From: Candidatus Omnitrophica bacterium UBA6215
GTDB lineage: Bacteria > Omnitrophota > Gorgyraeia > Pluralincolimonadales > Pluralincolimonadaceae
Assembly (NCBI GenBank): GCA_002421665.1
Contig: DISH01000004.1
Span: 245,109-309,108 of the forward strand
Direction of reading: 5' to 3'
Length of the DNA: 64,000 nt
Position 1 is the stretch's first letter; the number at the start of each line of letters is the position of its first letter. The notes below the pieces were generated by a model that saw only the letters and a list, made by a program, of their open reading frames with translations, ran no database searches and was not told where the DNA came from. Shown here in pieces: positions 3,704 through 38,563 of the stretch. Made by a program: the position numbers and the translations under genes.

Positions 3704-3705
3704 AC

Positions 3706-5471: not shown

Positions 5472-5472
5472 A

Positions 5473-6819: not shown

Positions 6820-6820
6820 A

Positions 6821-7819: not shown

Positions 7820-7834
7820 TCAACGGAGATCTTG

Positions 7835-8659: not shown

Positions 8660-9441
8660 GCGGCCGCAGGTACTTATGCGGCCTTGGCAGGAAAGTTTTC
8701 CTGCCGTCGAAAGACGACGGTATACTGTCCAGGATCTCGAGGAAGATCTTTGACCTGCGCTTTGTTCTTTTGGACCAAAAGTCCAAAGACCGCCTGAGCA
8801 GGGAAATCTGGAGCGGTGATGCCGGCGGAAGCTGGATAGAGTTCAAGCGCGTAAAATACTTAAAAGGAGAGATGGGCGGTTTCCTGCGCGATGTCCGCGG
8901 GCCGCTGGAGGCTATGGCGACGGATTACTTGAAGAATAACATGCGTTGCGGGAATGTCATTGATATCGGTACCGGCAGCGGTGAATTTTGTTTTGCCCTT
9001 GCGGGGAAGATCCCGAACGTATTATTTACGGGGCTTGACCTTAACCGCGAGGCCGTAACAAAAAACATGGCTGATGCCTGCTCTAAGGGTCTCATGGACA
9101 GGATCGGGTTCGAGTGCGCGGATGCCGTTGAATGGTTCAAGTCCCGGCCCGGGGCAGGAGAATTCCTGGCGTTATCGGTCGGCACACTAAAATTCTTCGT
9201 CCCGGCGCGGCTGAAAGAGCTGATAAAGGCGATGAAGATGTCATCAGGAAAGTTCGCTTTGGGCATCTGTGAAGAATCTGCCCCCGGTTCAACGCGTTCA
9301 ACATATTCCGGTACCATGGGTTACAGGCATGATTATATCTCGCTCTTTAAGCGCGAAGGTCTCGTTCTCGTTTCCGAGAAGAGGTTTTTTGCGGGCGGAA
9401 CGCCCATATTGTGTGCACTTGCCCGCTACGAGGGAAGATGA
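8650..9441 (+). CDS. class I SAM-dependent methyltransferase
   Basis: Motif I VIDIGTGSGEF. Start uncertain: candidates are TTG 8650, ATG 8872 or ATG 8914. Confidence 0.6.
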   Translation: MVVSGRRYLCGLGRKVFLPSKDDGILSRISRKIFDLRFVLLDQKSKDRLSREIWSGDAGGSWIEFKRVKYLKGEMGGFLRDVRGPLEAMATDYLKNNMRCGNVIDIGTGSGEFCFALAGKIPNVLFTGLDLNREAVTKNMADACSKGLMDRIGFECADAVEWFKSRPGAGEFLALSVGTLKFFVPARLKELIKAMKMSSGKFALGICEESAPGSTRSTYSGTMGYRHDYISLFKREGLVLVSEKRFFAGGTPILCALARYEGR

Positions 9442-10496
9442 TGATTTCTGCTGATTTCAGACACGAGGTCCTTGGAGTTAATAATGCTGAAGACTGGCTA
9501 AATGTCGCCGGCGAGTGCGCTTATGCCCCGTATAATGTCTTTGACCCGGATTTTATAGAACGAAACACGCGGGAGGGCTCTAACGCGTTGAGCGTGATAG
9601 TCTATGAAACCTCAAGCGGGAAACCGGCGGCCATATTCCCCGCCGAACTCTATACGAAATCGGCATCGTTGATAATTATCAGGATCGCTAAATCTTCCGC
9701 GTACGGAGGACTTATGATCGCCGGCGGGTATATGCGCGAGGCCGGTTCGATAAAGAGATATTTTTATGAAAATATCATATCAGGTTATTACCGATGTAAG
9801 GCTATTGACATGGTTGAGGTTATCCCGTCCCCTCTGCTGGAGATAGATTTTCCTGGGCTTACGCATGCTGCGGTGCCGTTCTATCGGGCGGAGGCTGAAA
9901 TAAATTCTTTGCTGTATACCGACCTGAAAGGCGATTTTACCGAAAAACTCGGTTATAACGTCAAGAGGGAATCGTTTAAGGGTATGGATGCCCTGAAAAG
10001 CCTTAAGGTGATGACAGGTTCTGAAGAAGGCGCTTTTGGGCTGTTGAAAGGGCTTGAATGCGGGAAAGCCGCGACGTTAAATGTTGAACCTATACCTGGG
10101 CGGGTCCTTGAAAAAATGCTGGGTTCACGGATGGTGGCGACAGTTATCGCGGTTTCCGGTGGTAAGGCGCTGGCCGCCGTATCTTACAGCTGCCGCGGGA
10201 AACTGGCCACTTTGCATTATAACGCGAGCACTCCGGAGGGGAAGAAGTCATTTGTCAACAAGGGTCTTATGCTTTGGTGTATTCAGGATTGCAAAAATAA
10301 GGGCGCTGACTATTTTGTGCTCGGCAACGGATGGGAACAGGGAAGGGATAAGAAAGAGAGCGAGCAACTCGAAAGGATGGCTTTTTTCAAAAAGAGTTTT
10401 TCCACTTCCGAGTCTTCCACCTTCAGGTTCAGCATGCCGCTTACTCTTAAAGGTCTCCTGGCGCAGGCGGGCAACCGCGCGATAAAGAGACGATGA
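9438..10496 (+). CDS. FemAB/CelD-like GNAT (Acetyltransf_6, BioF2-like) protein
   Basis: C-terminal ...KGADYFVLGNGWEQG... and overall FemABX-like layout. ATGATGA overlap with the upstream gene. Confidence 0.6.
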   Translation: MMISADFRHEVLGVNNAEDWLNVAGECAYAPYNVFDPDFIERNTREGSNALSVIVYETSSGKPAAIFPAELYTKSASLIIIRIAKSSAYGGLMIAGGYMREAGSIKRYFYENIISGYYRCKAIDMVEVIPSPLLEIDFPGLTHAAVPFYRAEAEINSLLYTDLKGDFTEKLGYNVKRESFKGMDALKSLKVMTGSEEGAFGLLKGLECGKAATLNVEPIPGRVLEKMLGSRMVATVIAVSGGKALAAVSYSCRGKLATLHYNASTPEGKKSFVNKGLMLWCIQDCKNKGADYFVLGNGWEQGRDKKESEQLERMAFFKKSFSTSESSTFRFSMPLTLKGLLAQAGNRAIKRR

Positions 10497-12400
10497 TGGA
10501 AAAAAAGAAAATGGAAACGGTATTTCTTGCTACGGCTTCCGAAGCCTCTCAATTCCTTGCCCCCGGAGAGTCGGACGCGGGCAGTTCCATAATTGCCATG
10601 AGCCCTTCCGTAAAGGTTTTATTGGAGAAGAACGGGCTCAAACCCGGAAGCTCGGGCTGCTATTTCGATACAGGCTCCCATAAAAAACTGCTTGAGAAGT
10701 CCGATGAGATAGTAAGATGGATAAAAGAGAACGCCAGGTTCGAGGATATGGGCCTGGGCACGGCGGAAGGATACGAAAGCTCCTTTATCTATTGGACGAG
10801 GTTCTCGGTACATCATTGTATGTGGGCAATAGAGGTGGTCTCAAGGGCGGTTGAGGACCTCAAACCGGATTCGCTTGCCGCGTTCGGTATCCCGGAAGTG
10901 CCCGTACCGAGTTTATATTTGGAGAAGGAAGATAAGGTGGCCGGCAGGCTGGCGGAAAGGGTGGCCTCTAAAAACGGACTTACCTTCAGGGAATTATCCC
11001 GCAAACCCCGCAGGTTCACCCGGCAGGTTTTGTCATGTTCTATTTACATAAATTCCGCTGTCAGGTTCCTGCTTGAGACATTCAGGTTTTACGCCTGGCT
11101 TTTAAAGAATTCATACGGCAAGGGAAAAAAGACGGCGGTTTTTACCACCTCATCCTACCAGATGGATAAGACTGCGCAAGAGATGGTAAAGGAGCGTCCC
11201 GGCCTGCGTTGTGTTATGCTCATCTATCCGATAGATACGCTTTTTTATATCCCAGGACCGCTTTTTTTTCTGGACTCTCCGACCGCAGGCATGTATATAA
11301 AACGACAAAGGGAACATTTTGCTGCGCTCGCAGAGAAAATCGAATCCGATAAGGGTATCTTTTCTTACAGGGGGATATTCTTCGGTGATATAGTGGCCCA
11401 AAGGCTCAGGATGAGCGTTTTTAACTATATTACAGGTCTTCAGATGTGGACGCTTAAACTTAATACGGCTATAAGGACTATCAACCCCGGCATTGTGGTA
11501 TCCAACGGCAATCGTGACGATGATATAATAACCGCGAAACTTTGTTCGGGGATGGGCATCGAGTCTTTAATAATCAGCCATGGTTCTCATGTAAAGCCGG
11601 GGAATTTTTACGAGAGGACGGAATGGTCTGAGCTTGGGGCAAAGCTTATAGGCGGGCCTTTTTCCTTGGTTGCCATGCAGTCCCCGTTGGCGGAGGGTTA
11701 TCTCGGGGAGTTTCCGCCGCGCGGCAGACCGGTAAAGACCGGTCCTTTGATATGGGGCAAGCCCGTTGACAGGAGCTCCGGAGAGTCTTTTGCCGCTCAG
11801 GTATTGGGGGATAAGTATGTGAAGGGGAAGACCAGGATCATCGTTCATGCCGGTACCCCAAAGCCAAGCAAGAGCCTGAGACTTTATGTTTATGAAACCC
11901 CTGAGGAATATATTAATGCCATTAGGGAATTGGCGGACGCGGTCGAACGGGTATCGGACGCGGTCCTGATAGTGAAGTTCCGTCCAAGCCCGGAGATAAG
12001 CATAGAGGATATTAAGGCGTCGGTGCCTTTTTCGAAAAAGGTTATATTGAGTGTAGGGGAGCCTTTCCTTAAGGTTCTGGCTATGGCCGACCTTCTGGTA
12101 AGTTTCTCGTCTACTACGATCGAGGAGGCCGTACAGAACGGGGTGCCGGTCCTGCTGTACGGCGGGCAGGGGAGGTATTCGCACATCCCGGCTTATGAGG
12201 TTGAAGACAGTTCTGCGCCTGTCGAAAGGAGCGCGGCGTATCATGTACGCGGCCCGGGCGGACTGCTGCCGGCCCTCGATGGCATCCTTCGTCTGGGCAT
12301 AGACGGACAGGGAAGGGACAAAGGGCTTTTTGACAAGTTCATATACCCGGAAGGGGAACGCATCCCATTGGAGAAGATAATAGATGAAGTCAGCCGATAA
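10493..12400 (+). CDS. large protein with TagF-like (glycosyl/glycerophosphate transferase, GT-B) C-terminal domain; N-terminal region of unknown function
   Basis: C-terminus LIVKFRPSP ... ADLLVSFSSTTIEEAVQNGVPVL resembles the Glyphos_transf (KPHP ... DYSS) pattern. The N-terminal ~400 aa are unrecognised. Confidence 0.5.
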   Translation: MMEKKKMETVFLATASEASQFLAPGESDAGSSIIAMSPSVKVLLEKNGLKPGSSGCYFDTGSHKKLLEKSDEIVRWIKENARFEDMGLGTAEGYESSFIYWTRFSVHHCMWAIEVVSRAVEDLKPDSLAAFGIPEVPVPSLYLEKEDKVAGRLAERVASKNGLTFRELSRKPRRFTRQVLSCSIYINSAVRFLLETFRFYAWLLKNSYGKGKKTAVFTTSSYQMDKTAQEMVKERPGLRCVMLIYPIDTLFYIPGPLFFLDSPTAGMYIKRQREHFAALAEKIESDKGIFSYRGIFFGDIVAQRLRMSVFNYITGLQMWTLKLNTAIRTINPGIVVSNGNRDDDIITAKLCSGMGIESLIISHGSHVKPGNFYERTEWSELGAKLIGGPFSLVAMQSPLAEGYLGEFPPRGRPVKTGPLIWGKPVDRSSGESFAAQVLGDKYVKGKTRIIVHAGTPKPSKSLRLYVYETPEEYINAIRELADAVERVSDAVLIVKFRPSPEISIEDIKASVPFSKKVILSVGEPFLKVLAMADLLVSFSSTTIEEAVQNGVPVLLYGGQGRYSHIPAYEVEDSSAPVERSAAYHVRGPGGLLPALDGILRLGIDGQGRDKGLFDKFIYPEGERIPLEKIIDEVSR

Positions 12401-14213
12401 ACGTTCGTCAGCCATGTGGTTCTTCCTGAAACGTTACAAAAGGATATATGTCGCCCTTTTCCTGGTTACCATTACTTATGCGGTCCTCGAGAGCATAAAT
12501 ATATCCATACTGCTGCCCCTGTTCGATACGGTCCTTAATAATACCGGCCGGGAAGGAAGACTTTTCGCGTTCATAGATGCCGTTATTTCGCATATGCCGT
12601 TCAAACAGCCTTTTATGAATGTCTTTTTGCTGGCGATCCTGCTCGTAATTTTCAAGGAGATTGCCGCTTTCGTAAGGATAAAACTTGTCGGGTACGGTGT
12701 AGGGAAGGTCGTATGCGACGTCAAAGAGGAGGTATTCGATAAATTCGCGTTTTCCGATTACCAGTTCTTCCTGGATAATAAACAAGGGAAGTTGATCTAT
12801 GACCTGCTGACCGCTTCGGGCAGGCTGGGCAATTGCCTTCAATTCTTCCCGGACCTCGTTACCGCCGTTTTGATGACGGTCACCATAGGCGTGCTTCTTT
12901 TCTCCATATCCGTCAAGATGACCATCTTCCTTATGATCGTAGGGGTGATTTACAGCGTAGCAATGCATTTCCTCGCGCAGAGGGTTTCGTACAATATAGG
13001 GGCCGAGAGGGCCATGGTCAGCACCCAGGCCAACGTGATAGCTAATGAGCTTATAGACGGCGTAAAACATATCAAGGTCTCCGGCTCATTCGATATATGG
13101 AGGGGTAATTTCCGCAGGGCGGTAAGGAAGTTCAAAGACCTGGTAATAAGGGATTTTATCTGGGTCAACGTTCCCGACAGGATGATACAGGTAATACCCG
13201 TCGTGATACTTACTGCCATCGCGTTCTACCTTTACAAGAGGGCGGATGCGGTGGAATTCCTGACCGGGAACCTGGTGACCATGGGTGTATACATATATGC
13301 GTTTTACAGGGTCAGCCCGTACCTGGCTTCTTTCGGAAGGCTCAGGATGCAGATAATGGGTTCCTTGCCGGACGTGGAACTTCTTTATGAGGACCTGTTA
13401 AAAGAGACCAATTTTATAAAGGACGGCACGCTCGACATAAGGGATTTCCGCAGGGAGATAAGGTTTAGCAGGGTCAACTTTGCCTACAAAGGCAGTAAGG
13501 AAGTGTTAAGGGACATCGACCTGAGCGTGGAAGCGGGCAAGACTACGGCTGTAGTCGGTTCTTCGGGCAGCGGTAAGACTACATTGATCAACCTAATGGT
13601 ACGGCTCTTCGACCCGGATAGCGGCAGTATCACGATAGACGGGGTTGACCTCAAGGATATCAGGCATTCCTCCCTTATACACCTTATAGGCATGGTCAGC
13701 CAGGACACGTTCATATTCAACGGGACCATAAGGGACAATATTGTCTTCGGCCTTGAAGGTATCGCGGAGGACAAATTGGTCGCGGCATCCAAGCTTGCCA
13801 ACGCCCACGGTTTTATCGAAAGTTTCCCGTCGAAATATGATACGGTCGTCGGGGATAAAGGTCTTAAGTTATCCGGAGGTCAAAGGCAGAGGATAGCCAT
13901 AGCCAGGGCGATATTGCGCGACCCGAAGATACTGATACTCGACGAGGCCACGAGCTCGCTTGACTACCACTCAGAGGTAACGGTCCAGCAGGCGATAAAC
14001 ACGGTATCCAAGAACAGGACGGTGGTAGTTATAGCCCATCGGTTGTCCACCATCATAAACGCGGATAAGATAATCGTCCTTGACAGGTTCAGGATAGCGG
14101 ACCAGGGCACGCATGCCGAACTCATGGGCCGCGAAGGGATATACAAATCACTTTATGAAAGCCAGGGGAAATTGCATAATATACAAACCGGAGGTAATGC
14201 CAGCGATGAGTGA
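12384..14213 (+). CDS. ABC transporter, fused permease/ATPase (MsbA/PglK-type exporter)
   Basis: Six predicted TM helices N-terminally; Walker A GSSGSGKTT, signature LSGGQRQRIAIARA, Walker B ILILDEATS. No C39 peptidase domain. Confidence 0.9.
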   Translation: MKSADKRSSAMWFFLKRYKRIYVALFLVTITYAVLESINISILLPLFDTVLNNTGREGRLFAFIDAVISHMPFKQPFMNVFLLAILLVIFKEIAAFVRIKLVGYGVGKVVCDVKEEVFDKFAFSDYQFFLDNKQGKLIYDLLTASGRLGNCLQFFPDLVTAVLMTVTIGVLLFSISVKMTIFLMIVGVIYSVAMHFLAQRVSYNIGAERAMVSTQANVIANELIDGVKHIKVSGSFDIWRGNFRRAVRKFKDLVIRDFIWVNVPDRMIQVIPVVILTAIAFYLYKRADAVEFLTGNLVTMGVYIYAFYRVSPYLASFGRLRMQIMGSLPDVELLYEDLLKETNFIKDGTLDIRDFRREIRFSRVNFAYKGSKEVLRDIDLSVEAGKTTAVVGSSGSGKTTLINLMVRLFDPDSGSITIDGVDLKDIRHSSLIHLIGMVSQDTFIFNGTIRDNIVFGLEGIAEDKLVAASKLANAHGFIESFPSKYDTVVGDKGLKLSGGQRQRIAIARAILRDPKILILDEATSSLDYHSEVTVQQAINTVSKNRTVVVIAHRLSTIINADKIIVLDRFRIADQGTHAELMGREGIYKSLYESQGKLHNIQTGGNASDE

Positions 14214-19214: not shown

Positions 19215-19274
19215 CAATGGAAACAAAAAAAGTATTCGAAGCTGGAGGTGGCGGTTTAAATTAGGCCTCATTTG

Positions 19275-20456
19275 ATGAATTGGTTATATTTACGGGGCAT
19301 GAGCTGCAAAATGCATATTAGGACAGTTGTTATAATAATATTTATTTGTGCGGCAATTTTTGCGTTATTTCCCTTCGCGATGCTAGCGAACAAGAGCACG
19401 GCGTATTTCGCGTATAAAGAGATAACATATAAGACGATGGCCGATAGGATTGCCTGCGGCTCCAAGGCGCCGGAAGAGACAGTGCTGCGCATAGGCGAAT
19501 ATTTCCATCGATATTTGTTCACGCCTTACGGGGCAAAAGCCGTCGATAAGGACACTTATAATGACTTAATCAGGGGTATAGCATATTGTGACCAGAAGGC
19601 ATGGGGTATGTCGGCGTTCATTGCTAAAAAGGGAATTGACAGCAGGATGATAATGACAGTGAATCCCAATGGCCAGTCAAACCATACCGCATTGGAAGCG
19701 TATATTGGAGGAAAATGGAGGTATCTCGACCCGCAATACGCGCTTGTCATGCGTAAAAAGGACGGCGAACTAGCCTCATATTTGGAGGTATGTGAAAACC
19801 CGTCGCTTTTGGTTGATTCTCCAAGGATGCGCCTGATGAGGAAGGTTTGCCCGGGAGAGTTCGAGGCCGTAAGCAGGTACCTCGCAAGGAACGTTTATAA
19901 TCGAGGATCAAGACCGGTTATATGGAATAGCCCTGGCAGAAGCAAGGGGAATATAAAACGCGCCATATCTCGCGTATTAGACGCATATGTCACGCTCTTC
20001 GGAAGGAGATTCTCCTATCTTTACCAGGACGCGTACATGGGTATCTATTCCGCGGAAGGCGGCCATAATACAGATTATCTTCTGGCAAGGAATTACGATA
20101 TCTACGGAAGATACGACAGGTCGGTTTATTATTACAGGAGATTCCTCGAAAGTTCCCCTTCGGACGACAAAAGGTATCCCGCGATGCTGTACCTATCGAT
20201 AATATATACAAATAACAGGGACAATAAAGCTGCGATAGAAATTCTCCGGGTTATGATGGCAGACCCGGAGTCATCAGAATGGGCGCCATACGTATATTAT
20301 TGGCTCGGTTATAATTATGAGGCACAGAATGATGCGGGAAAGTCGGCCGACTGCTTCAGGGCCTCCATAATGGAAAGCACGAAGGCGGAGGAACCTTCTG
20401 CCAAAATAAAATTACTGGAACTTGATTCATTCGAAGGGTTTGCCAAATATAAATGA
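19275..20456 (+). CDS. membrane-anchored transglutaminase-like domain protein with TPR-like C-terminus
   Basis: N-terminal TM helix; Cys (IAYCDQKAWGM) ... His/Asp (HTALEAYIGGKWRYLDP) arrangement typical of transglutaminase-like cores. Lies in a lower-GC segment; start ambiguous (19272/19275/19311). Confidence 0.6.
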   Translation: MNWLYLRGMSCKMHIRTVVIIIFICAAIFALFPFAMLANKSTAYFAYKEITYKTMADRIACGSKAPEETVLRIGEYFHRYLFTPYGAKAVDKDTYNDLIRGIAYCDQKAWGMSAFIAKKGIDSRMIMTVNPNGQSNHTALEAYIGGKWRYLDPQYALVMRKKDGELASYLEVCENPSLLVDSPRMRLMRKVCPGEFEAVSRYLARNVYNRGSRPVIWNSPGRSKGNIKRAISRVLDAYVTLFGRRFSYLYQDAYMGIYSAEGGHNTDYLLARNYDIYGRYDRSVYYYRRFLESSPSDDKRYPAMLYLSIIYTNNRDNKAAIEILRVMMADPESSEWAPYVYYWLGYNYEAQNDAGKSADCFRASIMESTKAEEPSAKIKLLELDSFEGFAKYK

Positions 20457-20553
20457 AGATTAAATCGCTCGACATGTCTTCTTTGGTATATGCTATGACT
20501 ATTATGAGGACGGTACGGTCACGGCGCTCTTCAAGGACTGGTACCGTTTTACG

Positions 20554-20646
20554 ATGATCCCGTTCACGCATGTGTTCATGGGGGCCGGGATTGCGTGGTT
20601 GATATCGAAGGCGCGTGACGCAAAAACAGGGAAGGCAAAAGCATGA
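20554..20646 (+). CDS. possible 30-aa small membrane peptide (or remnant), translationally coupled to the downstream epimerase
   Basis: MIPFTHVFMGAGIAWLISKARDAKTGKAKA: hydrophobic helix plus basic tail. Its TGA overlaps the ATG of the next gene (ATGA). The frame is open further upstream without a start codon. Confidence 0.2.
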   Translation: MIPFTHVFMGAGIAWLISKARDAKTGKAKA

Positions 20647-27844: not shown

Positions 27845-28805
27845 TGCCTTGCGGAATTTTGCCAGGGTAAACTACCACGGGATAAGGCGCGCGGTCCGGC
27901 ACGCTAAAAATAAATTTACCGACCGCGCCCCTAAGCTTATAGTTCTGGCTTACCATAGGGTCCTTCCGGAGACCGGAGATAACCTGCTCAATACGGCGGT
28001 CTCAGTAAAGACTTTCTCGAAACAGATCGAGAGCATATCCAAGAACATGAAGATACTTCCCTTGTCGGAGGCCGCCGCGAAATCCGGGGGCCGTTTGCCG
28101 GGCGACGGGATTATCGCTGCCTTGACTTTTGATGATGCCTATTCGGACAATTATTCCGTTGTGTTCCCCTTATTGAAGAAGAAAGGTATCAGCGCCTCTT
28201 TCTTCGTGCCGACCGGTTATGCCGGCAAGGACATACCCATGTGGGATTACGAGGTCGTAGAGCGGATATCGCGCAGCGGGGTCGAACGTATAGAGGCAGG
28301 TGATTACAGGCAGCAAAGGCGCGTGAATGAATCCGGGCTTTCCTTTGCCTTCAGGGTTTTTAATGACCTTAAGTCGAGAGATTTCCATATTATTGATGAA
28401 GCGTTGACCTTTCTCAGGCGCAAAACCCCCGGGATAGGCCCCGGTATGGGCCGCTGTATGTCCTGGGAAGAGATAAAAGAACTTTCCGAGGCGGGCATGG
28501 AAATAGGTTCACACGCGGTAACGCACAGGTCCCTGGCGAGGATACCTTTACCTGAGGCTGCCGGGGAGATAAGAAGGAGCAAGGCGGATATAGAAGAGAA
28601 GACAGGTGCCGCGTGCCTGCACTTTGCTTTTCCCTTCGGAAGCCGTCTGGATTATAACAGTGCCCTGGTAGATGAGGTGAGGAAGGCCGGATATTCCACC
28701 TGTATCTTGAATATCCACGGTTATAACAGGGCAGATCCCGGGATATTCACTTTTAAGAGGATCATCATGGAAGAACATACCGATACCAGGTTCATACTGG
28801 GTTGA
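27834..28805 (+). CDS. polysaccharide deacetylase (NodB homology domain, CE4)
   Basis: NodB motif 1 ALTFDDAYSDNY; His-containing motifs (IGSHAVTH). Confidence 0.8.
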   Translation: MLNSALRNFARVNYHGIRRAVRHAKNKFTDRAPKLIVLAYHRVLPETGDNLLNTAVSVKTFSKQIESISKNMKILPLSEAAAKSGGRLPGDGIIAALTFDDAYSDNYSVVFPLLKKKGISASFFVPTGYAGKDIPMWDYEVVERISRSGVERIEAGDYRQQRRVNESGLSFAFRVFNDLKSRDFHIIDEALTFLRRKTPGIGPGMGRCMSWEEIKELSEAGMEIGSHAVTHRSLARIPLPEAAGEIRRSKADIEEKTGAACLHFAFPFGSRLDYNSALVDEVRKAGYSTCILNIHGYNRADPGIFTFKRIIMEEHTDTRFILG

Positions 28806-28813
28806 GCGGATAT

Positions 28814-29869
28814 ATGTTTCCGGAGATAGATATAATAGTGCTCAGCTACCTGGAATCCGACCGCCTGATCAAATGCGTCGACTCGGTGCTTATGTCCACC
28901 TATCCGAACATACGGGTCTTTATAGTGGATAACGGATCAGGGCCTGAGGTCACGGCGAGGATAAAGGACAGGTACTCGGGCCGGGCCAAAGTGGTCCTGA
29001 TAGAGAACGGCAGGAACCTGGGTTACGCCGGAGGAAATAACATAGCCTTGAAGATAGCCGAGGGCAGGTATTGCGTAATGCTCAACAACGACGCGATTGT
29101 CGACTGCAACTGGCTGGAACCTATGGTTGAGCTTATGGAGAAGAACCCCGGTGCCGGCGCCTGCCAGCCGAAGATACTGAATATAAATGACCCCGGAAGG
29201 TTCGAATATGCCGGCGCGGCAGGGGGCTATATCGATATATACGGTTATCCTTTTATGAGAGGCAGGATTTTTGACACAATAGAATCTGACAACGGACAAT
29301 ACGATGATAATGCCGAATTAGACTGGTGTTCGGGAGCCGCTTTTATGGTAAGGACAGACGTTTTTAAAAAGACGGGATTTTTTGATCCGGCTTTTTTTAT
29401 GTATGCGGAAGAGATAGATCTCTGCTGGAGAATAAGGCGATGCTCATATCGCATCCTGTTTGTCCCAAGGTCAAAGGTATATCACGAGGGGATGGGGTCC
29501 ATAAAGAACAGGCAGATATTTAAACTGCATCTGAATTACAGGAACAACTTGATATTGCTGCTAAAGAACTACAGTTTTATGCATTTACTTAGCAGGATGC
29601 CGGTGAGGATGATTTTGGATTGCGTGAGCGCGGTTTATTTCCTGCTGAATAAGCCTGCGAAGATGCGTTTTCTCGCCATATTGTGGGCCTACGGCGAACT
29701 TATCATCATGCTGCCAAGGATCATCTATGCGAGATATTCCGTTCAGCGGTTGTTCAAAGATCGCTGTCCTGAACCCGTGAAGTACCCGCTTTTTGACGTG
29801 AACATAACGTTTCAGTACTTCATTTTAGGTAAAAAGAAGTTCAATGAATTGATCTTAAGGAGGAGATGA
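28814..29869 (+). CDS. GT2 family glycosyltransferase
   Basis: IDIIVLSYLESDRLIKCVDSV...VFIVDNGS ... MLNNDA (DXD-like) ... CSGAAFMVR. A TTG at 28802 is also possible. Confidence 0.8.
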   Translation: MFPEIDIIVLSYLESDRLIKCVDSVLMSTYPNIRVFIVDNGSGPEVTARIKDRYSGRAKVVLIENGRNLGYAGGNNIALKIAEGRYCVMLNNDAIVDCNWLEPMVELMEKNPGAGACQPKILNINDPGRFEYAGAAGGYIDIYGYPFMRGRIFDTIESDNGQYDDNAELDWCSGAAFMVRTDVFKKTGFFDPAFFMYAEEIDLCWRIRRCSYRILFVPRSKVYHEGMGSIKNRQIFKLHLNYRNNLILLLKNYSFMHLLSRMPVRMILDCVSAVYFLLNKPAKMRFLAILWAYGELIIMLPRIIYARYSVQRLFKDRCPEPVKYPLFDVNITFQYFILGKKKFNELILRRR

Positions 29870-29870
29870 G

Positions 29871-30821
29871 ATGGGTAGTTTTATGTCCTTGGTTATCCCC
29901 GTTTATAACGAACAGGACAACCTGCAGTATTTGTATGAGAGGATAGTGAAAACGCTCGATCCGCGTAAAAGTATTTTTGAGATAATTTTTGTCAATGACG
30001 GCAGCACAGACGGTTCATTGGATATATTGAAGGACCTTCACGGGAAAGATGCGCGCGTTAAAATAGTGGACCTGTCAAGGAATTTTGGACACGAGATAGC
30101 CACGAGCGCCGGGTTGAGATATGCAAAAGGAGATGTTGTAGTTGTAATGGAATCCGATCTCCAAAGGCCTCCGGAATTCATTCCCGTGCTTTTATCAAAA
30201 TATGAAGAAGGGTTCGACGTAGTCTGCGCTTTGAGGAAGCAGCGAAGGGCGGAATCGTTTTATAAAGTGGTGGTATCCAAACTGTTCTACAGGCTGATCA
30301 ACAGGATAATAGAGATCCGGTTGCCGCAGGATTCTACGGAATTTATATTGCTTAACAGGAAGGCGGTTGATGCGATATTGAGGTTTGACGAAAACATCCG
30401 ATTCTTTAGGGGGATCGTATCGTGGATCGGGTTCAAATCCGCGGTTGTATACTACGAAGAGGATTCGCGCTACAAGGGGCGGTCAAAGTATGATCTTTCA
30501 GGCCTTTTGAAATTGGCGGTTGATATTATAACGGGCTATTCCATCAAGCCGCTGGCTTTCGTTACATATACCGGTTTCACGGTATTTTTGGCCAGTTTCG
30601 TCATGATCCTGTATTATTTTATCAAGACCATAGTGAGCGGGATATCCTTTCCCGGTTATGCCTCTCTTATGATCACGATATTGATGATAGGCGGAGTTCA
30701 ATTGCTTTCCATAGGTATAATAGGACAATATATCGGCAGGATTTATACGGAAACGCAGAGAAGGCCGCTTTATCTTGTAAATGATCTTATAGGGATAAAT
30801 GATAAAGATAATGCGCGTTAA
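29871..30821 (+). CDS. GT2 polyprenol-phosphate glycosyltransferase (ArnC/GtrB-like, C-terminal TM helices)
   Basis: SLVIPVYNEQDNL...IFVNDGSTDGS ... two C-terminal TM helices. Strong SD AAGGAGGAG upstream. Confidence 0.8.
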   Translation: MGSFMSLVIPVYNEQDNLQYLYERIVKTLDPRKSIFEIIFVNDGSTDGSLDILKDLHGKDARVKIVDLSRNFGHEIATSAGLRYAKGDVVVVMESDLQRPPEFIPVLLSKYEEGFDVVCALRKQRRAESFYKVVVSKLFYRLINRIIEIRLPQDSTEFILLNRKAVDAILRFDENIRFFRGIVSWIGFKSAVVYYEEDSRYKGRSKYDLSGLLKLAVDIITGYSIKPLAFVTYTGFTVFLASFVMILYYFIKTIVSGISFPGYASLMITILMIGGVQLLSIGIIGQYIGRIYTETQRRPLYLVNDLIGINDKDNAR

Positions 30822-32529
30822 AAAGGCGTTCTTTGTTCTTGCGGCCGTAGCTGTGTTGGCTGCCCTGCACTTTGCTTCCGTTGTGTCCAAGATGCCCAAT
30901 AAGTTTGACAATGAGCCTTCTGCCGGCGCCTTCGGAGGTATCCGCCTGCATTACTTGAACGTACTTAATTTTGACTTTTCGCGCGGCGTCTCTTCCCCGG
31001 AGGGGACTTCGCACATACTGGATAATTTTTTCAAATCGGCCGTAAGCGGGACCCATGGCCTCCTGGATTTCGCGCACTGGTATATCTATTCGGGAATATA
31101 CGACATGTTTGGGATACCCGTGAACGAGTTTTGGATGATTATGGCCCAGGCCATCGCGATGTTCACAGGTGTGCTTATCATGTCGTTCTTGGTTTATAAA
31201 GTTTATGATAGTGGAATTATAGCGTTGTTCTTTCTGGCTATGTCGTCGGCATTGTTTGTGCATCATTCGATAAATTTCTATATAATACCGGTTAACACCT
31301 TTTACGAAGGCCTGTTGTTGCTGGTCCTGTATTATTATGATTGGAAGGGACCTTCGGCCCGGGCCAGGTTGTTTTTACTGTTCACGCTCCTCGTAAATTC
31401 AGCATCGGGTAACGTAATCAAGCTTCCCTTATATGCCTATTTTGCCTGGTCGGCCGCCTATAAGCGCGACGGGTATGGGATCGTCCGTTCTTGCGGCGAA
31501 TACCTGGTAAAGAGGGCCGCGAACCTCATTGTGTTATTCCCGGTCGGGTTGGCCGTTGCCGCACATCTTTATGTTTACAAGCGCATCGGAGACAGCAACC
31601 TGGGGCTTCTCGGGTGGGTATCCCAGAAGGTGGGGATAGGGGCGCCTATGGTCTCAAGGTTTTCAGCTTTTGGAAACACCATCTCGAGCATGATATTCAA
31701 CAAGACCTGGCAATGGTGGGTATTTGTCGTGGCAGCGGTCTTCTATGCCCTGGCCGTCATCAGGGGAAGAAGGAAAGCGCCTCTGCTGCTCTTTCCTTTC
31801 CTTTACTATGCTTATATAATAAATTTCGAGCCGAATTCGGCTCTTCTGCCGCTGCTGGTCCTCATGAGCATAGGATCGGCCCAGATGTTCGTTATGGCCC
31901 GCGGCATAAACAGGCAAGGGGCCCTGAGATCCCTGTGTATTGCCTTTTGCATGATATTTACCGTCTATATGATCGCGGCGCCGATAGTATCGGATATATA
32001 TTCCATGAAGGCGGCGGGGAACCGTACACCTAATTATCTTAAGGCGGCCGGATACTTCCTCAGGGAGCATATGTCTGCAGGCGACAAGATCGCCAGCCTT
32101 CTTGATGAGAAGCAGAATATCCTGAACGAATATTATTACGGAAAGAATTTCTTCAAAAGCCCGGTTTACGGTAAGTATATATACGACATGAGGAACATTA
32201 CTGAGCCATTCTCGCCTTCGAACCCGGTTGAGCGCGGAGAGATCCCCGGGACATTCGCTTTCTATGTGATATCTCCGTACCTTTACGCCTCCGACGGCGG
32301 TTACCGGGCGTTTGTGGACAATGAGATAAGGGCTCATTCTCTGAAGAAAGCCGCGGATATAGCCGACGGGAAAACGGTATACCTTTGGATCTATTCGTCA
32401 GGGAAACCGGGCTATGAAAGGGTGGAAGTCTCTGAAGCCAACAGGTTATTTGACAGCGAGTACGCCAACCTGAAGAACCTATTCTATAACAGGCACGTGG
32501 GCGTTGCCTCTACCTGGGGGTTCTATTGA
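30811..32529 (+). CDS. large polytopic membrane protein, putative GT-C-fold glycosyltransferase
   Basis: More than 12 TM helices plus a large C-terminal soluble domain. Immediately follows the polyprenol-P GT, giving an ArnC/ArnT-like gene pair. Confidence 0.5.
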   Translation: MRVKKAFFVLAAVAVLAALHFASVVSKMPNKFDNEPSAGAFGGIRLHYLNVLNFDFSRGVSSPEGTSHILDNFFKSAVSGTHGLLDFAHWYIYSGIYDMFGIPVNEFWMIMAQAIAMFTGVLIMSFLVYKVYDSGIIALFFLAMSSALFVHHSINFYIIPVNTFYEGLLLLVLYYYDWKGPSARARLFLLFTLLVNSASGNVIKLPLYAYFAWSAAYKRDGYGIVRSCGEYLVKRAANLIVLFPVGLAVAAHLYVYKRIGDSNLGLLGWVSQKVGIGAPMVSRFSAFGNTISSMIFNKTWQWWVFVVAAVFYALAVIRGRRKAPLLLFPFLYYAYIINFEPNSALLPLLVLMSIGSAQMFVMARGINRQGALRSLCIAFCMIFTVYMIAAPIVSDIYSMKAAGNRTPNYLKAAGYFLREHMSAGDKIASLLDEKQNILNEYYYGKNFFKSPVYGKYIYDMRNITEPFSPSNPVERGEIPGTFAFYVISPYLYASDGGYRAFVDNEIRAHSLKKAADIADGKTVYLWIYSSGKPGYERVEVSEANRLFDSEYANLKNLFYNRHVGVASTWGFY

Positions 32530-32530
32530 T

Positions 32531-34713: not shown

Positions 34714-34717
34714 ATAC

Positions 34718-36672: not shown

Positions 36673-36673
36673 A

Positions 36674-38563
36674 TTGTGCGGGATATGCGGTATAGTCGAT
36701 TATAGCGGAAAGCCCGTTGAGAAAGGCGCCGTAGGGAGGATGTGCATGGCCCTTGAGCACAGAGGTCCTGACGGCGAGGGGATATATATAGACCCTCCGG
36801 GTTCAGTCGGCCTGGGGCACAGGAGATTGAGTATAATAGACCTTTCTGACGAAGCTTCACAGCCCATGCATAACGAGGACAGCAGCGTATGGCTTGTCTT
36901 CAACGGCGAGATATATAATTTCCATGAATTGCGTCCCGGATTGGAGAAGAAAGGGCACCGCTTTGTGTCCCACTCGGATACGGAGACGATAGTGCATTTA
37001 TACGAGGAATACGGGGAAGATTGCGTGAACCGTCTGCGCGGGATGTTCGCTTTCGCCATCTGGGATGCCGGCAAGAAGAAGATTTTTGCCGCAAGGGACA
37101 GGGCAGGCAAGAAACCTTTCCTATATTCGTGGGATGGGCAGCGTTTTGTGTTCGCTTCGGAATTTTGCGCGATGCTTGAGAGCGGCAGCGTCCGCAGGGA
37201 CATAGAGGAGAACGCTGTCAGCTATTACATGAGCCTCGGGTATATACCGGCGCCTATGACGATATTCAAGGGTATAAGGAAGCTCATGCCTGCGCATACC
37301 CTTATCGCCGATGCTTCGGGCGTCAGGACCCGGAAATATTGGGACCTCGATTATACCTCTAAATTGCGCATAGGAGAGGACGAAGCTGCGGAGAGGTTCC
37401 TGGAACTTTTCAGGGAAGCGGTAAAGATAAGGCTCTATAGCGATGTGCCGCTCGGGGCTTTCCTAAGCGGCGGCGTAGATTCAAGCTGCGTTGTCGCGAT
37501 GATGAGCGAGTTTACCAGGGTAAAGACCTTCTCGATAGGTTTCGAGGAACAGGATTACAGCGAGATAGAGTACGCGCGCCAGGTATCACGCATCTTCGGG
37601 ACAGAACACCGCGAATTCATAGTAAAGCCCGACGCCCTGGATATAATAAGCCTTCTTACGCAAAGGTACGGCGAGCCGTACGCCGATTCCTCGTGCATAC
37701 CTACGTATTACGTGTCGCAGGAAACAAGGAAATTCGTAACAGTTGCCTTGAACGGTGACGGAGGCGATGAATCGTTCGGCGGATATGAGCGCTACCAGGC
37801 GATGAATGCGGCGGATAAGATAGGCAGGCCGGGCCTTAGGGATATTTCGAGGGTTGTTTCCGGCCTGTTGCCGGATTCGACGGAACCCAAGAGTTTTTCT
37901 AGAAGGGTAAAGCGTTTCCTTGGGAATGCCGGGCTTCCTGCGGCAGAAAGATACCTAAGGTGGGTCGGTATATCCGGCGACATACGGTTGGCAGACCTCT
38001 ATTCGCGTGACTTTGCGGCAAAGACGGATATTAACGCTCCCCTGGAGTTATTGAAGCCGTATTTTTCTATGCCGGGAAAGATGGACCTGCTGGACAGGCT
38101 TCTCAAGGCCGACGTGAACACCTATCTTCCTAACGATTTGCTCGTGAAAGTGGATATTGCAGCCATGGCCAATTCACTGGAAGGGCGATCTCCTTTCCTG
38201 GACCATATGGTCATGGAGTTCGCGGCCGGGCTGCCGTCGTCATACAAGATAAGGGGTTCGATCAAAAAATATATAGTAAAGAAAGCCTTTTCAAACAAGC
38301 TCCCGGGCGCTATACTGGGCAGGAGGAAGATGGGCTTCGGCTTGCCCGTAGGCAGGTGGTTCAGGGGAGAACTGAAAGATTACCTGCGCCAGACATTGCT
38401 TTCGGAAACTTCGTTGGGCAGGGGATATTTTGACCGGGACAAGGTCAGGTCGATGGTCGATTCCCATACGGAAGGCCGCCGCGACCTGTCTTTCCAGTTA
38501 TGGGCCATGCTTATGCTTGAGCTCTGGCATAAAAAATTCATCGACGAGAGGACCGTATGCTGA
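36674..38563 (+). CDS. asnB: asparagine synthase (glutamine-hydrolysing) family amidotransferase
   Basis: N-terminal MCGICGI nucleophile Cys2 (needs the TTG start at 36674), then SGGVDSS PP-loop. Confidence 0.9.
   Translation: MCGICGIVDYSGKPVEKGAVGRMCMALEHRGPDGEGIYIDPPGSVGLGHRRLSIIDLSDEASQPMHNEDSSVWLVFNGEIYNFHELRPGLEKKGHRFVSHSDTETIVHLYEEYGEDCVNRLRGMFAFAIWDAGKKKIFAARDRAGKKPFLYSWDGQRFVFASEFCAMLESGSVRRDIEENAVSYYMSLGYIPAPMTIFKGIRKLMPAHTLIADASGVRTRKYWDLDYTSKLRIGEDEAAERFLELFREAVKIRLYSDVPLGAFLSGGVDSSCVVAMMSEFTRVKTFSIGFEEQDYSEIEYARQVSRIFGTEHREFIVKPDALDIISLLTQRYGEPYADSSCIPTYYVSQETRKFVTVALNGDGGDESFGGYERYQAMNAADKIGRPGLRDISRVVSGLLPDSTEPKSFSRRVKRFLGNAGLPAAERYLRWVGISGDIRLADLYSRDFAAKTDINAPLELLKPYFSMPGKMDLLDRLLKADVNTYLPNDLLVKVDIAAMANSLEGRSPFLDHMVMEFAAGLPSSYKIRGSIKKYIVKKAFSNKLPGAILGRRKMGFGLPVGRWFRGELKDYLRQTLLSETSLGRGYFDRDKVRSMVDSHTEGRRDLSFQLWAMLMLELWHKKFIDERTVC

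What the first reader, a model, noticed from the sequence alone, without database searches (positions are those of the whole stretch)
9438..38563. Two FemAB/CelD-like GNAT proteins, an AsnB-type amidotransferase, a DegT aminotransferase and a NodB deacetylase: amino-acid/amide-decorated amino sugars?
FemABX-family enzymes use aminoacyl-tRNA to add amino acids to amine acceptors. Two such genes (9438, 26747) in a glycan cluster, together with a sugar aminotransferase (25610), an AsnB-like amidotransferase (36674; related enzymes amidate uronic acids in O-antigens) and a deacetylase (27834) that could free an amine, suggest aminoacylated or amidated sugar residues.
Basis: partly seen in the sequence, partly recalled or inferred. 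Interest (0 to 1): 0.55.

Follow-up and report, generated by a model that had tools for sequence, protein, structure and literature searches.

The report
FemX-like sugar-decorating genes in glycan cluster
A large surface-sugar gene cluster from an uncultured Omnitrophota-like bacterium carries two FemX-shaped transferases, a sugar deacetylase, an aminotransferase and an amidotransferase, the same enzyme set that in Porphyromonas builds an amino-acid-bearing sugar, so it looks like a new example of a known kind of sugar decoration, not a new system.

Summary
All five genes exist at the stated coordinates and look catalytically intact.

- **GNAT B (26747-27844):** passes Pfam Acetyltransf_6 (CelD/BcsL).
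- **GNAT A (9438-10496):** passes no HMM. A confident AlphaFold model has a tandem-GNAT fold whose best PDB match is Weissella FemX. A belongs to a very rare family: 22 cluster representatives among 1.84 billion.
- **No coiled-coil arm** in either protein, as in FemX_Wv.
- **Catalytic lysine:** both families keep an invariant aromatic-Lys pair. In A it aligns with the FemX catalytic F304-K305.

The five genes are not one module.

- **B** sits in a DegT-like / GNAT / CE4-deacetylase trio, found in most related loci from Omnitrophota, Nitrospirota and Latescibacterota MAGs.
- **A** belongs to a separate ABC-exporter and radical-SAM glycan cassette.
- **The AsnB homologue** scores best against the WbpS/WbqG-type XrtA/PEP-CTERM amidotransferase model, and two distant loci keep it among the same glycosyltransferases.

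The acyl donor (aminoacyl-tRNA or acyl-CoA) is unresolved, and the window encodes no uronic-acid-forming dehydrogenase.

Verdict: a new member or variant of a known kind, of moderate interest.

The parts
9438..10496 (+). GNAT A: 352-aa tandem-GNAT, FemX-like protein from a rare family with no HMM
   Evidence: No Pfam or NCBIfam hit; PF13480 reaches only E 0.11. 22 cluster representatives among 1.84e9. AF2 pLDDT 90.5. Foldseek top hit is FemX_Wv, E 7e-12. Invariant F317-K318 aligns with FemX F304-K305.
10493..12400 (+). 635-aa soluble protein of unknown family, always next to GNAT A; weak GT-B/TagF-like hints
   Evidence: No Pfam hit; DUF6716 at E 0.005. Syntenic in L005 and L033. Weak similarity to the 535-aa protein at 15135-16742.
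12384..14213 (+). ABC exporter (fused TMD-NBD) of the GNAT A cassette
   Evidence: ABC_membrane + ABC_tran. Conserved beside A homologues in L032 and L033.
19272..20456 (+). Transglutaminase-core + TPR protein with an N-terminal TM segment
   Evidence: Pfam Transglut_core E 5e-6; TM scan. A related gene lies beside two Acetyltransf_6 genes in L009.
20643..21602 (+). SDR sugar-nucleotide dehydratase/decarboxylase-like enzyme; possible source of the keto-sugar
   Evidence: Epimerase/GDP_Man_Dehyd. Below cut-off for dTDP-glucose 4,6-dehydratase and UDP-4-keto-pentose synthase.
21595..22116 (+). Left-handed beta-helix (hexapeptide) acetyltransferase; WbpD-type role possible
   Evidence: Hexapep E 2e-20; WcaF and NeuD/PglB/VioB families.
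22796..24316 (+). 506-aa polytopic membrane protein of the conserved block
   Evidence: 6 predicted TM segments. Conserved upstream of the trio in 10 related loci, two of them cut off by the end of the fetched stretch.
24313..25620 (+). PMT_2-type GT-C membrane glycosyltransferase (ArnT-like class)
   Evidence: PF13231, 30.8 bits against a cut-off of 26.1. 10 TM segments. Conserved upstream of the trio.
25610..26746 (+). Divergent DegT-like PLP enzyme, first gene of the trio
   Evidence: PF01041 hit on the N-terminal half only. PDB sugar aminotransferases match residues 18-160. FSLRKN lysine and EDNAYSLFS invariant in 14 orthologues.
26747..27844 (+). GNAT B: Acetyltransf_6 (CelD/BcsL) tandem-GNAT, FemX-like transferase
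   Evidence: PF13480 E 4e-20. AF2 pLDDT 92.1. Foldseek top hit FemX_Wv, E 4e-11. Invariant K320 preceded by nearly invariant Y319. Conserved basic helix 174-184.
27834..28805 (+). CE4/NodB-type polysaccharide deacetylase, cytoplasmic, third gene of the trio
   Evidence: PF01522 E 2e-23. FDD, GSHxxxH and FPFG motifs conserved. No signal peptide or TM segment.
28802..29869 (+). GT2 glycosyltransferase of the conserved block
29871..30821 (+). PgfS/ArnC/GtrB-type GT2 (polyprenyl-phosphate sugar synthase class) with 2 C-terminal TM segments
   Evidence: NCBIfam PgfS 277 bits and ArnC 174 bits, full length, both below cut-off; TM scan.
30799..32529 (+). 576-aa polytopic membrane protein of the conserved block
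   Evidence: 7 TM segments. Conserved downstream of the trio.
36674..38563 (+). AsnB-type glutamine-dependent amidotransferase of the WbpS/WbqG/XrtA-associated type
   Evidence: TIGR03108 626 bits (cut-off 817); TIGR01536 484 bits (cut-off 267); AsnB PRK09431 291 bits. Cys2 and SGGVDS present. Syntenic in L008 and L022.

Best explanation
The window is one very long, single-strand surface-glycan/LPS cluster from an Omnitrophota-like MAG. It holds at least two independent sugar-decoration modules that work by a deacetylate-then-re-acylate logic, as in the Porphyromonas Wbp/Vim pathway.

Module 1 is the conserved trio at 25610-28805 with its neighbours.
- Inferred: an SDR makes a keto-sugar, the DegT-like PLP enzyme aminates it, and the hexapeptide acetyltransferase may cap that amine.
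- Inferred: the cytoplasmic CE4 deacetylase frees an amine on a nucleotide- or polyprenyl-linked HexNAc-type sugar.
- Inferred: GNAT B, a FemX-like tandem-GNAT enzyme with a basic C-terminal helix, transfers an aminoacyl group to that amine. The donor is most likely aminoacyl-tRNA; the alternative is a non-acetyl acyl group from acyl-CoA.
- Inferred: the decorated sugar is then placed on the glycan by the adjacent GT2 and GT-C membrane transferases.

The AsnB-type enzyme (36674), 9 kb downstream among GT1 genes, converts a sugar carboxylate (a uronic or ulosonic acid) to its amide using glutamine and ATP, as WbpS/WbqG do.

Module 2: GNAT A (9438) is a second, unrelated-in-sequence FemX-like transferase. 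It decorates a different, heavily methylated polymer that is exported by an ABC transporter.

Shown: gene presence, family or fold assignments, intact catalytic motifs, conserved synteny. Inferred: substrates, order of steps, donor.
For: - **Fold.** Both GNATs model confidently (pLDDT 90.5 and 92.1). They match aminoacyl-tRNA-dependent tandem-GNAT enzymes best: FemX_Wv TM 0.58-0.66, FemX_Sa, FemA, Sbb17/Sba18, MprF. Acyl-CoA tandem GNATs score lower: VipF, NMT, 2wpw and 5kf2 at TM 0.36-0.50.
- **Catalytic lysine.** An invariant lysine preceded by a nearly invariant aromatic residue is kept in both families (F317-K318 in A, Y319-K320 in B). A's FFK aligns with FemX_Sa AFK and FemX_Wv F304-K305. 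This is the catalytic Lys of FemX and of DhpH-C (PMC12945691).
- **Basic helix.** B has a conserved basic helix (residues 174-184, at least 80% K/R at 7 positions) at the start of GNAT domain 2. A positively charged helix on that domain is proposed to bind the tRNA acceptor stem in FemX (PMC12945691).
- **Trio synteny.** Among 24 related loci, a DegT-like gene precedes the GNAT in 16 and a CE4 gene follows it in 14-15, down to 35% identity of B, in MAGs labelled Omnitrophota, Nitrospirae and Latescibacterota.
- **Intact active sites.** The PLP lysine of the DegT-like protein is invariant. CE4 metal and catalytic motifs are intact. The AsnB homologue has Cys2 and the PP-loop.
- **AsnB type.** It matches TIGR03108 best, the family of WbpS/WbqG that forms uronamides (PMC7468200).
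- **Precedents.** Wbp/Vim (PMC7468200). HfsH/HfsK (PMC5362036). Orf11, which transfers Gly from Gly-tRNA to an amino-sugar amine (PMC12945691).
- **Bridging hits.** A relative of B (P0047) also carries PF04339 FemAB_like. A relative of A (P0077) carries a weak PF13480 hit.
Against: - No direct evidence for the donor. PF13480 relatives include BspF, reported as a crotonyltransferase (PMC7821425).
- Neither GNAT matches PF02388 FemAB or VimA's family TIGR03019.
- No tRNA gene or aaRS paralogue lies in the window.
- No UDP-sugar 6-dehydrogenase is present for a uronic acid.
- The alignment of A's Lys to FemX K305 rests on a weak 8-bit profile match. For B the equivalence is positional only.
- The DegT-like C-terminal half matches nothing, so its substrate class is uncertain.
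- The same gene set also fits an Arn-like scheme.
Confidence: 0.5

Rival explanations
1. Same deacetylate/re-acylate logic, but the FemX-like GNATs use acyl-CoA and not aminoacyl-tRNA. They would install a non-amino-acid N-acyl group (for example crotonyl, hydroxybutyryl or succinyl), or simply re-acetylate, as proposed for Caulobacter HfsK acting after HfsH.
For: - B's only NCBIfam hit is the GNAT effector BspF, reported as a crotonyltransferase (E 1e-8; PMC7821425).
- HfsK, a FemX-like tandem GNAT paired functionally with the deacetylase HfsH, is discussed as an N-acyltransferase of unknown donor (PMC5362036).
- The window's CE4 gives a weak hit to HfsH (E 6e-10).
- Tandem GNATs that bind acetyl-CoA also appear among the fold hits (VipF, 2wpw, 5kf2).
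Against: - Acyl-CoA tandem GNATs match clearly worse (TM 0.36-0.50) than aminoacyl-tRNA enzymes (0.58-0.66).
- The FemX catalytic aromatic-Lys dyad and a basic helix at the start of GNAT domain 2 are conserved.
- No canonical Q/RxxGxG/A pyrophosphate-binding motif is evident after the beta-4-equivalent strand in either sequence (read; not formally tested).
Confidence: 0.3
2. An Arn-like pathway for a cationic amino sugar. The DegT-like enzyme makes an amino sugar nucleotide. It is transiently N-acylated, by GNAT B or the hexapeptide acetyltransferase, to pull the transamination forward. The ArnC/PgfS-like GT2 loads it on undecaprenyl phosphate. The CE4 enzyme removes the acyl group, as ArnD does. 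A GT-C enzyme (PMT_2-like) transfers the free-amine sugar to lipid A, core or glycan in the periplasm. The end product would then carry a free amine, not an amino acid.
For: - Functional analogues of ArnB (DegT-like), ArnC (GT2 at 29871: 174 bits to ArnC, 277 to PgfS, full length), ArnD (CE4) and ArnT (PMT_2 GT-C at 24313) lie in one block. Related loci repeat the block: the PMT_2-like gene lies upstream of the trio in 10 of them.
- The SDR at 20643 gives partial hits to ArnA's C-terminal domain and to UDP-4-keto-pentose synthase.
- Arn chemistry itself is established knowledge, not tested here.
Against: - There is no formyltransferase in the block. The only Formyl_trans gene (57773) is paired with def and looks like housekeeping Fmt.
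- A 365-aa FemX-like tandem GNAT has no precedent as a transient protecting-group enzyme.
- The CE4 enzyme does not hit the ArnD model at E <= 0.01.
- Loci L019 and L030 keep the trio with neither the ArnC-like GT2 nor the PMT_2-like gene within 6 kb, and L008 and L022 keep it without the ArnC-like GT2.
Confidence: 0.15
3. The five genes are functionally unrelated neighbours. Each modifies a different residue of different glycans, and the AsnB homologue is the cell's asparagine synthetase that merely sits in the cluster.
For: - The genes fall into three separately conserved cassettes.
- The AsnB homologue passes the general asparagine synthase model TIGR01536 (484 bits against a cut-off of 267) and stays below the TIGR03108 cut-off.
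- No uronic acid pathway is present in the window.
Against: - DegT-like, GNAT B and CE4 genes abut or overlap and recur as a trio in most related loci.
- The AsnB homologue keeps its position between the same GT1 genes in L008 and L022, at 52-54% identity.
- It scores twice as high against the EPS-type model as against AsnB.
Confidence: 0.05

Closest known systems
Wbp/Vim linking-sugar pathway of Porphyromonas gingivalis and Tannerella forsythia (WbpE, WbpD, VimE, VimA, WbpS; Veith et al. 2020, PMC7468200)
   Same: The enzyme classes are the same: a DegT aminotransferase, a hexapeptide acetyltransferase, a CE4 deacetylase, a FemAB-related GNAT proposed to add Ser or Gly to the freed amine, and an AsnB-type amidotransferase of the TIGR03108 type that makes the uronamide. 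That paper also notes VimA-like, deacetylase and AsnB-like genes together in EPS loci of other phyla.
   Different: - B and A do not hit VimA's family TIGR03019.
- The CE4 enzyme is far below TIGR03006 (20.9 against 276 bits).
- The DegT-like protein is a divergent subfamily fused into a trio with the GNAT and CE4 genes.
- WbpA and WbpB are not in the window; a GFO_IDH_MocA gene lies just upstream of it.
- No T9SS, exosortase or sortase gene is seen.
- The host is Omnitrophota-like, not Bacteroidota.
Caulobacter holdfast HfsH (deacetylase) / HfsK (FemX-like tandem-GNAT N-acyltransferase) (PMC5362036)
   Same: A polysaccharide deacetylase is paired with a tandem-GNAT protein whose closest solved structure is FemX. 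HfsK has a short basic C-terminal extension needed for membrane association, and A and B both end in a basic helix.
   Different: HfsK is a c-di-GMP effector and is not adjacent to hfsH. Nothing here tests c-di-GMP binding. The donor of HfsK is unknown.
FemABX aminoacyl-tRNA transferases and natural-product relatives (FemX_Wv, FemA, Orf11/Sba18, PacB, VlmA, DhpH-C; PMC12945691)
   Same: Tandem-GNAT fold; the best structural matches; the conserved aromatic-Lys catalytic dyad; a basic helix at the start of domain 2. Orf11 aminoacylates an amino-sugar amine.
   Different: No sequence-level membership (no PF02388 hit), no FemA-type coiled-coil, and the acceptor would be a glycan precursor, not a peptidoglycan peptide or an antibiotic.
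Arn (PmrHFIJKLM) L-Ara4N lipid A modification pathway (established knowledge, not read here)
   Same: The combination of a DegT aminotransferase, an N-acyltransferase, an ArnC-like GT2, a NodB-fold de-N-acylase and a GT-C transferase in one block.
   Different: The acyltransferase is a FemX-like GNAT, not a formyltransferase. All matches to Arn equivalog models are far below cut-off.

Membership tests
Pfam PF13480 Acetyltransf_6 (CelD/BcsL-type GNAT) | HMM score above the gathering cut-off (22 bits) | tested here: met
   This row is for GNAT B only: 72.8 bits, E 4e-20, residues 174-320. All but one of 71 homologues carry PF13480 in the precomputed annotation.
Pfam PF13480 Acetyltransf_6 (CelD/BcsL-type GNAT) | HMM score above the gathering cut-off (22 bits), for GNAT A | tested here: not met
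   13.1 bits, E 0.11, at the expected place: residues 224-298 against profile positions 63-137. One relative, P0077, has a weak precomputed hit.
FemABX aminoacyl-tRNA transferases | Sequence membership (PF02388 FemAB, or a hit to solved Fem proteins) | tested here: not met
   No PF02388 hit for A at E <= 1 or for B at E <= 0.001. No Fem chain found by sequence or profile search of the PDB.
FemABX aminoacyl-tRNA transferases | Tandem-GNAT fold superposing on FemX | tested here: met
   A: 7z6a E 7e-12, TMq/TMt 0.63/0.66. B: 7z6a E 4e-11; 1xe4 TM 0.61/0.66.
FemABX aminoacyl-tRNA transferases | Catalytic Lys preceded by an aromatic residue (FemX_Wv F304-K305; DhpH-C F328-K329) | tested here: inconclusive
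   Invariant K318 after nearly invariant F317 (A) and invariant K320 after nearly invariant Y319 (B). A's FFK aligns to FemX_Sa AFK and FemX_Wv VFK in a weak targeted profile alignment (8 bits). For B the Lys itself was not aligned. No residue-level structural superposition was available.
FemABX aminoacyl-tRNA transferases | Aminoacyl-tRNA as acyl donor | not testable with these tools
   Needs an enzyme assay. Only indirect features are available: fold ranking and the basic helix.
FemABX aminoacyl-tRNA transferases | Coiled-coil helical arm (FemA/FemB/FemX_Sa subtype only) | tested here: not met
   No long antiparallel helical insertion in either model. Lengths of 352 and 365 aa are close to FemX_Wv's 335. 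FemX_Wv lacks the arm too, so it does not define the whole family.
VimA / PEP-CTERM-associated FemAB-related family (TIGR03019) | NCBIfam HMM match | tested here: not met
   Neither A nor B lists TIGR03019 at E <= 0.01.
WbpS/WbqG / XrtA-PEP-CTERM amidotransferase (TIGR03108) | HMM score above the curated cut-off (816.9 bits) | tested here: not met
   626.3 bits, full length 1-617 against 1-623 of 628. It is the best-scoring family but stays below cut-off. The protein passes the generic TIGR01536 model (483.9 against 267.1).
WbpS/WbqG / XrtA-PEP-CTERM amidotransferase (TIGR03108) | Class II glutaminase Cys2 and the PP-loop SGGxDS | tested here: met
   (M)CGICG at the N-terminus; SGGVDS at residue 265.
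DegT/DnrJ/EryC1 sugar aminotransferases (PF01041) | HMM above cut-off and the PLP-binding lysine | tested here: met
   76.2 bits against a cut-off of 19.8, but only profile positions 48-190 of 360. The FS(L)(R/K)K lysine is invariant in 14 orthologues and sits 7 residues before DGG, as in the family motif. The C-terminal half matches no family.
CE4 / NodB polysaccharide deacetylases (PF01522) | HMM above cut-off and the Asp-His-His metal site plus catalytic Asp | tested here: met
   83 bits against a cut-off of 23.1, in two stretches with a roughly 80-aa insertion. FDD, GSHxxxH and FPFG are conserved in 12 orthologues.
Arn L-Ara4N pathway | Equivalog-level matches to ArnB, ArnA, ArnC, ArnD and ArnT | tested here: not met
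   ArnB 49 bits (cut-off 631); ArnC 174 (cut-off 529); ArnA 121-136 (cut-off 777); no ArnD or ArnT hit. The resemblance is only at the level of enzyme classes.

The most novel reading that the evidence does not exclude
The amino-acid-bearing sugar made by the DegT-like/GNAT/CE4 trio would not be a mere decoration. It would be a 'linking sugar' or cross-bridge: its free alpha-amine would be the acceptor on which the membrane-anchored transglutaminase-core/TPR protein of the same cluster (19272-20456) covalently attaches surface proteins or cross-links glycan strands. That would be an Omnitrophota counterpart of the Vim/PorU system or of Fem-built peptidoglycan bridges. GNAT A's Pfam-less family would be a second, independent tRNA-dependent aminoacylation system acting on an ABC-exported, radical-SAM-methylated polymer.
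Probability: 0.07. Interest if true: 0.8.

Novelty: new member of a known kind. Interest (0 to 1): 0.38.

Why it matters
Omnitrophota are uncultured, very small bacteria whose cell-surface chemistry is unknown.

- A conserved cassette predicted to put amino acids and amides on surface sugars gives a concrete, testable prediction for their envelope.
- It extends the Wbp/Vim-type 'deacetylate then aminoacylate' logic well outside Bacteroidota.
- GNAT A defines a rare FemX-like family that no current HMM library recognises. That is useful for annotation, and for anyone cataloguing aminoacyl-tRNA-dependent transferases outside translation.
- None of this overturns current understanding.

Tried and rejected
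- **A and B as paralogues.** BLASTP and hhalign (probability 0.45%) show no significant similarity, so they are not recent duplicates.
- **Sequence and profile searches of the PDB** with A, B, A1 and A2 found no Fem protein. Only fold comparison did.
- **Word-indexed homologue searches for A** returned 2 and 5 proteins. The exhaustive representative search was needed.
- **The 565-aa protein beside a distant A homologue (L011)** is not detectably related to the 635-aa neighbour of A.
- **Relaxed Pfam scans** of the membrane proteins at 22796 and 30799 and of the DegT-like C-terminal half gave nothing.
- **PDB searches** with the 635-aa and 535-aa proteins gave nothing.
- **No tRNA genes** in the window.
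- **A RiPP-cluster reading** of the radical-SAM/SPASM + ABC + GNAT A cassette was considered. I set it aside because the cassette is full of glycosyltransferases, cytidylyltransferases and sugar-type methyltransferases, both here and in L033. Small precursor ORFs were not searched for.

Full report
**Setting.** The window is almost entirely one co-directional gene array with constant positive GC skew. From 191 to about 53.9 kb it encodes glycan and LPS functions:
- more than 15 glycosyltransferases and several SDR sugar-nucleotide enzymes;
- a WecA/MraY-type initiating transferase, an O-antigen-ligase-type protein and two heptosyltransferases;
- an ABC exporter, three radical-SAM enzymes and many methyltransferases.

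Housekeeping genes follow: UDG, priA, def-fmt and gap. Identical DNA occurs on metagenome contigs of 388-476 kb. The nearest named genomes are MAGs labelled Candidatus Omnitrophota or 'uncultured Planctomycetia', at 88% identity and below for GNAT B.

**Checking the observation.** All five genes are real ORFs at the stated starts.
- The 26747 protein (B) passes Pfam Acetyltransf_6 (72.8 bits, E 4e-20). Sources name its homologues 'CelD/BcsL family acetyltransferase'.
- The 25610 protein hits DegT_DnrJ_EryC1 only over the N-terminal large domain. PDB sugar aminotransferases align to residues 18-160. An alignment of 14 orthologues shows an invariant lysine in FS(L)(R/K)KN...DGG, correctly spaced for the PLP Schiff-base lysine, plus the EDNAYSLFS motif. 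The C-terminal half matches no family.
- The 27834 protein is a CE4/NodB deacetylase with an insertion of about 80 residues. FDD, GSHxxxH and FPFG motifs are intact, and it has no signal peptide or TM segment, so it should act in the cytoplasm.
- The 36674 protein is a complete class II glutamine amidotransferase / Asn_synthase, with Cys2 and an SGGVDS PP-loop.

**The 9438 protein (A) is the weak point at sequence level.**
- It has no Pfam or NCBIfam hit. PF13480 reaches only E 0.11.
- It shows no similarity to B by BLASTP or hhalign.
- An exhaustive HMMER scan of 1.84 billion cluster representatives found only 22 relatives.

With a 16-sequence alignment (A1), AlphaFold2 gave a confident model (pLDDT 90.5, pTM 0.87). 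Its best PDB matches, in order:
- Weissella viridescens FemX (E 7e-12, TM 0.63-0.66);
- MprF aminoacyl-phosphatidylglycerol synthase domains;
- the aminoacyl-tRNA-dependent peptide synthases Sbb17/Sba18;
- acyl-CoA tandem GNATs (VipF, N-myristoyltransferase), at lower TM-scores than FemX.

B (alignment A2; pLDDT 92.1) gives the same picture: FemX_Wv, FemX_Sa, FemA and Sbb17/Sba18 first. For A it holds only at fold level.

**Features bearing on the donor.**
- Neither model has the FemA-type coiled-coil. FemX_Wv lacks it too, so this says little.
- Both families keep an invariant lysine after a nearly invariant aromatic residue near the end of GNAT domain 2: F317-K318 in A and Y319-K320 in B.
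- I recovered true Fem C-terminal sequences from the PDB. With them, the A1 profile places A's FFK on FemX_Sa AFK and FemX_Wv F304-K305 (weak, 8 bits, a targeted test).
[quoted passage not shown] The equivalent K329, with F328, is essential in DhpH-C (PMC12945691).
- B also has a strongly conserved basic helix at the start of domain 2, with 7 positions at least 80% K/R in 30 sequences. A positively charged helix on domain 2 is proposed to bind the tRNA acceptor stem in FemX (PMC12945691).
- Both proteins end in a basic helix, like the membrane-tethering C-terminal extension of HfsK (PMC5362036).

These features favour a FemX-like mechanism but do not prove an aminoacyl-tRNA donor. B's only NCBIfam hit is BspF, a GNAT reported as a crotonyltransferase (PMC7821425).

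**Genomic architecture.** The five genes are not one module.

*Trio block.* Twenty-four loci carrying B homologues were compared by tblastn.
- A DegT-like gene precedes the GNAT in 16 loci. In two of them (L015, L016) another gene lies between, and in one (L007) identity is only 27%.
- A CE4 gene directly follows it in 14 loci. L007 adds one more that was seen only by Pfam.
- The trio persists down to 35% identity of B, including MAGs labelled Nitrospirae and Latescibacterota.
- In the Omnitrophota group the block extends to: membrane protein - PMT_2-type GT-C - DegT-like - GNAT - CE4 - GT2 - PgfS/ArnC-type GT2 - membrane protein.
- An SDR and a hexapeptide acetyltransferase lie just upstream.
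- In L007 a canonical WbpB/WbpD/WbpE-like set (GFO_IDH_MocA, Hexapep, DegT) lies next to the trio.

*GNAT A cassette.* A separate cassette is conserved at only 38% identity of A in L033. Its gene order is: GFO_IDH_MocA, Ldh_2, B12-radical SAM, methyltransferases, two CTP_transf_3 cytidylyltransferases, A, a 635-aa unknown protein, an ABC exporter, radical SAM/SPASM, a protein of about 530 aa, B12-radical SAM, GT2. A partial version occurs in L032 and L005.

*AsnB homologue.* It sits between GT1 genes 9 kb downstream of the trio. That arrangement recurs in L008 and probably in L022, where the fetched stretch ends inside the AsnB gene.

**What it most likely does.** The enzyme set maps one-to-one onto the Wbp/Vim pathway of Porphyromonas gingivalis and Tannerella forsythia (PMC7468200).
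- WbpE (a DegT enzyme) and WbpD (a hexapeptide acetyltransferase) build a 2,3-diacetamido uronic acid.
- The CE4 enzyme VimE is proposed to remove the 2-N-acetyl group.
- The FemAB-related VimA determines whether Ser or Gly is added to the freed amine.
- The AsnB-type WbpS (TIGR03108 family, like WbqG) makes the uronamide.

That paper also notes VimA-like, deacetylase and AsnB-like genes together in EPS loci of other phyla. A second precedent is Caulobacter HfsH/HfsK (PMC5362036). A third is Orf11, which transfers glycine from Gly-tRNA to an amino-sugar amine (PMC12945691).

My best explanation (confidence about 0.5) is a Vim-like deacetylate-then-aminoacylate or acylate step by CE4 and B, acting on an amino sugar made with the DegT-like enzyme. 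A WbpS-like amidation of a sugar carboxylate would accompany it. A would be an independent FemX-like decorating enzyme of the ABC-exported, methylated polymer.

**Rivals.**
- *Acyl-CoA donor (0.3).* The logic is the same, but the group added is not an amino acid.
- *Arn-like scheme (0.15).* N-acylation is transient and CE4 acts as the ArnD analogue, yielding a free-amine sugar delivered by the ArnC-like GT2 and a GT-C enzyme. All enzyme classes are present in the block. However, there is no formyltransferase, no ArnD-level match, and the trio also occurs without the ArnC-like GT2.
- *Unrelated neighbours with a housekeeping AsnB (0.05).*

**Membership.**
- B is a PF13480 member; A is not (13 bits).
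- Neither belongs to PF02388 or to VimA's TIGR03019.
- The AsnB homologue is closest to TIGR03108 but stays below its cut-off (626 against 817 bits).
- CE4 and DegT memberships are met, with the caveats given above.

So the system works like Wbp/Vim but is not orthologous to it.

**Gaps.**
- No UDP-sugar 6-dehydrogenase is encoded in the window, so the amidated carboxylate is unknown. Ulosonic acids are an alternative, given the two CTP_transf_3 genes.
- The window holds no tRNA gene, and none of the ORFs scanned against Pfam is an aaRS or a sortase-type enzyme.
- The rest of the genome could not be searched.

**Verdict.** I rate it a new member of a known kind, with a Pfam-less FemX-like family and a conserved DegT-like/GNAT/CE4 trio as the modestly new elements. 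Interest 0.38.

Noticed in passing
window 191-19214 (and locus L033 1-17053): A roughly 19-kb cassette is conserved in order at only 38% identity of GNAT A. It runs: Ldh_2, two B12-binding radical-SAM enzymes, a radical-SAM/SPASM enzyme, five or six methyltransferases (one FkbM-type), two CTP_transf_3 cytidylyltransferases (one fused to a GT2), an ABC exporter and two unknown soluble proteins. It looks like an ABC-exported, heavily C- or O-methylated polymer of unknown type.
   Followed up: partly
window 10493-12400 and 15135-16742: Two soluble proteins (635 and 535 aa) have no Pfam, NCBIfam or PDB sequence match. They are weakly similar to each other (E 5e-4 over 273 residues). They give faint GT-B/TagF/DUF6716/TIGR04326 hints and may be undescribed polymerising transferases.
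   Followed up: partly
window 19272-20456; L009 6276-7022: A membrane-anchored transglutaminase-core + TPR protein lies between a GT2 and an SDR gene. In L009 a similar GT2 / transglutaminase-like / SDR block sits beside two Acetyltransf_6 genes. A role in amide-bond cross-linking or protein attachment is speculative.
   Followed up: no
window 38557-40416: A fusion of a GT1-type glycosyltransferase with a C-terminal DUF218 domain (619 aa). The same fusion follows the AsnB homologue region in L008.
   Followed up: no
window 43494-45284: A 596-aa protein with 13 predicted TM segments. It combines a WecA/MraY-type (Glycos_transf_4) domain with the N-terminal CoA_binding_3 region of WbaP/WcaJ-type phosphoglycosyltransferases, which is an unusual fusion of parts from the two initiating-transferase classes.
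   Followed up: no
window 1-56569: Every gene over about 56 kb lies on the + strand with short overlaps, and GC skew is uniformly positive (0.06-0.19), so cumulative skew rises steadily. This is consistent with one very long operon-like array on the leading strand.
   Followed up: no
window 60088-62121: Two tandem paralogous GalT/HIT-family (DUF4921-like) nucleotidyltransferase genes lie next to gap, after a CBS-domain protein of unknown family (58767-60095).
   Followed up: no
L007 11714-16684: In a MAG labelled Nitrospirae, the DegT-like/GNAT/CE4 trio lies next to a canonical WbpB/WbpD/WbpE-like set (GFO_IDH_MocA, Hexapep, DegT) and a second DegT. This strengthens the link to Wbp-type diamino sugars.
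   Followed up: partly
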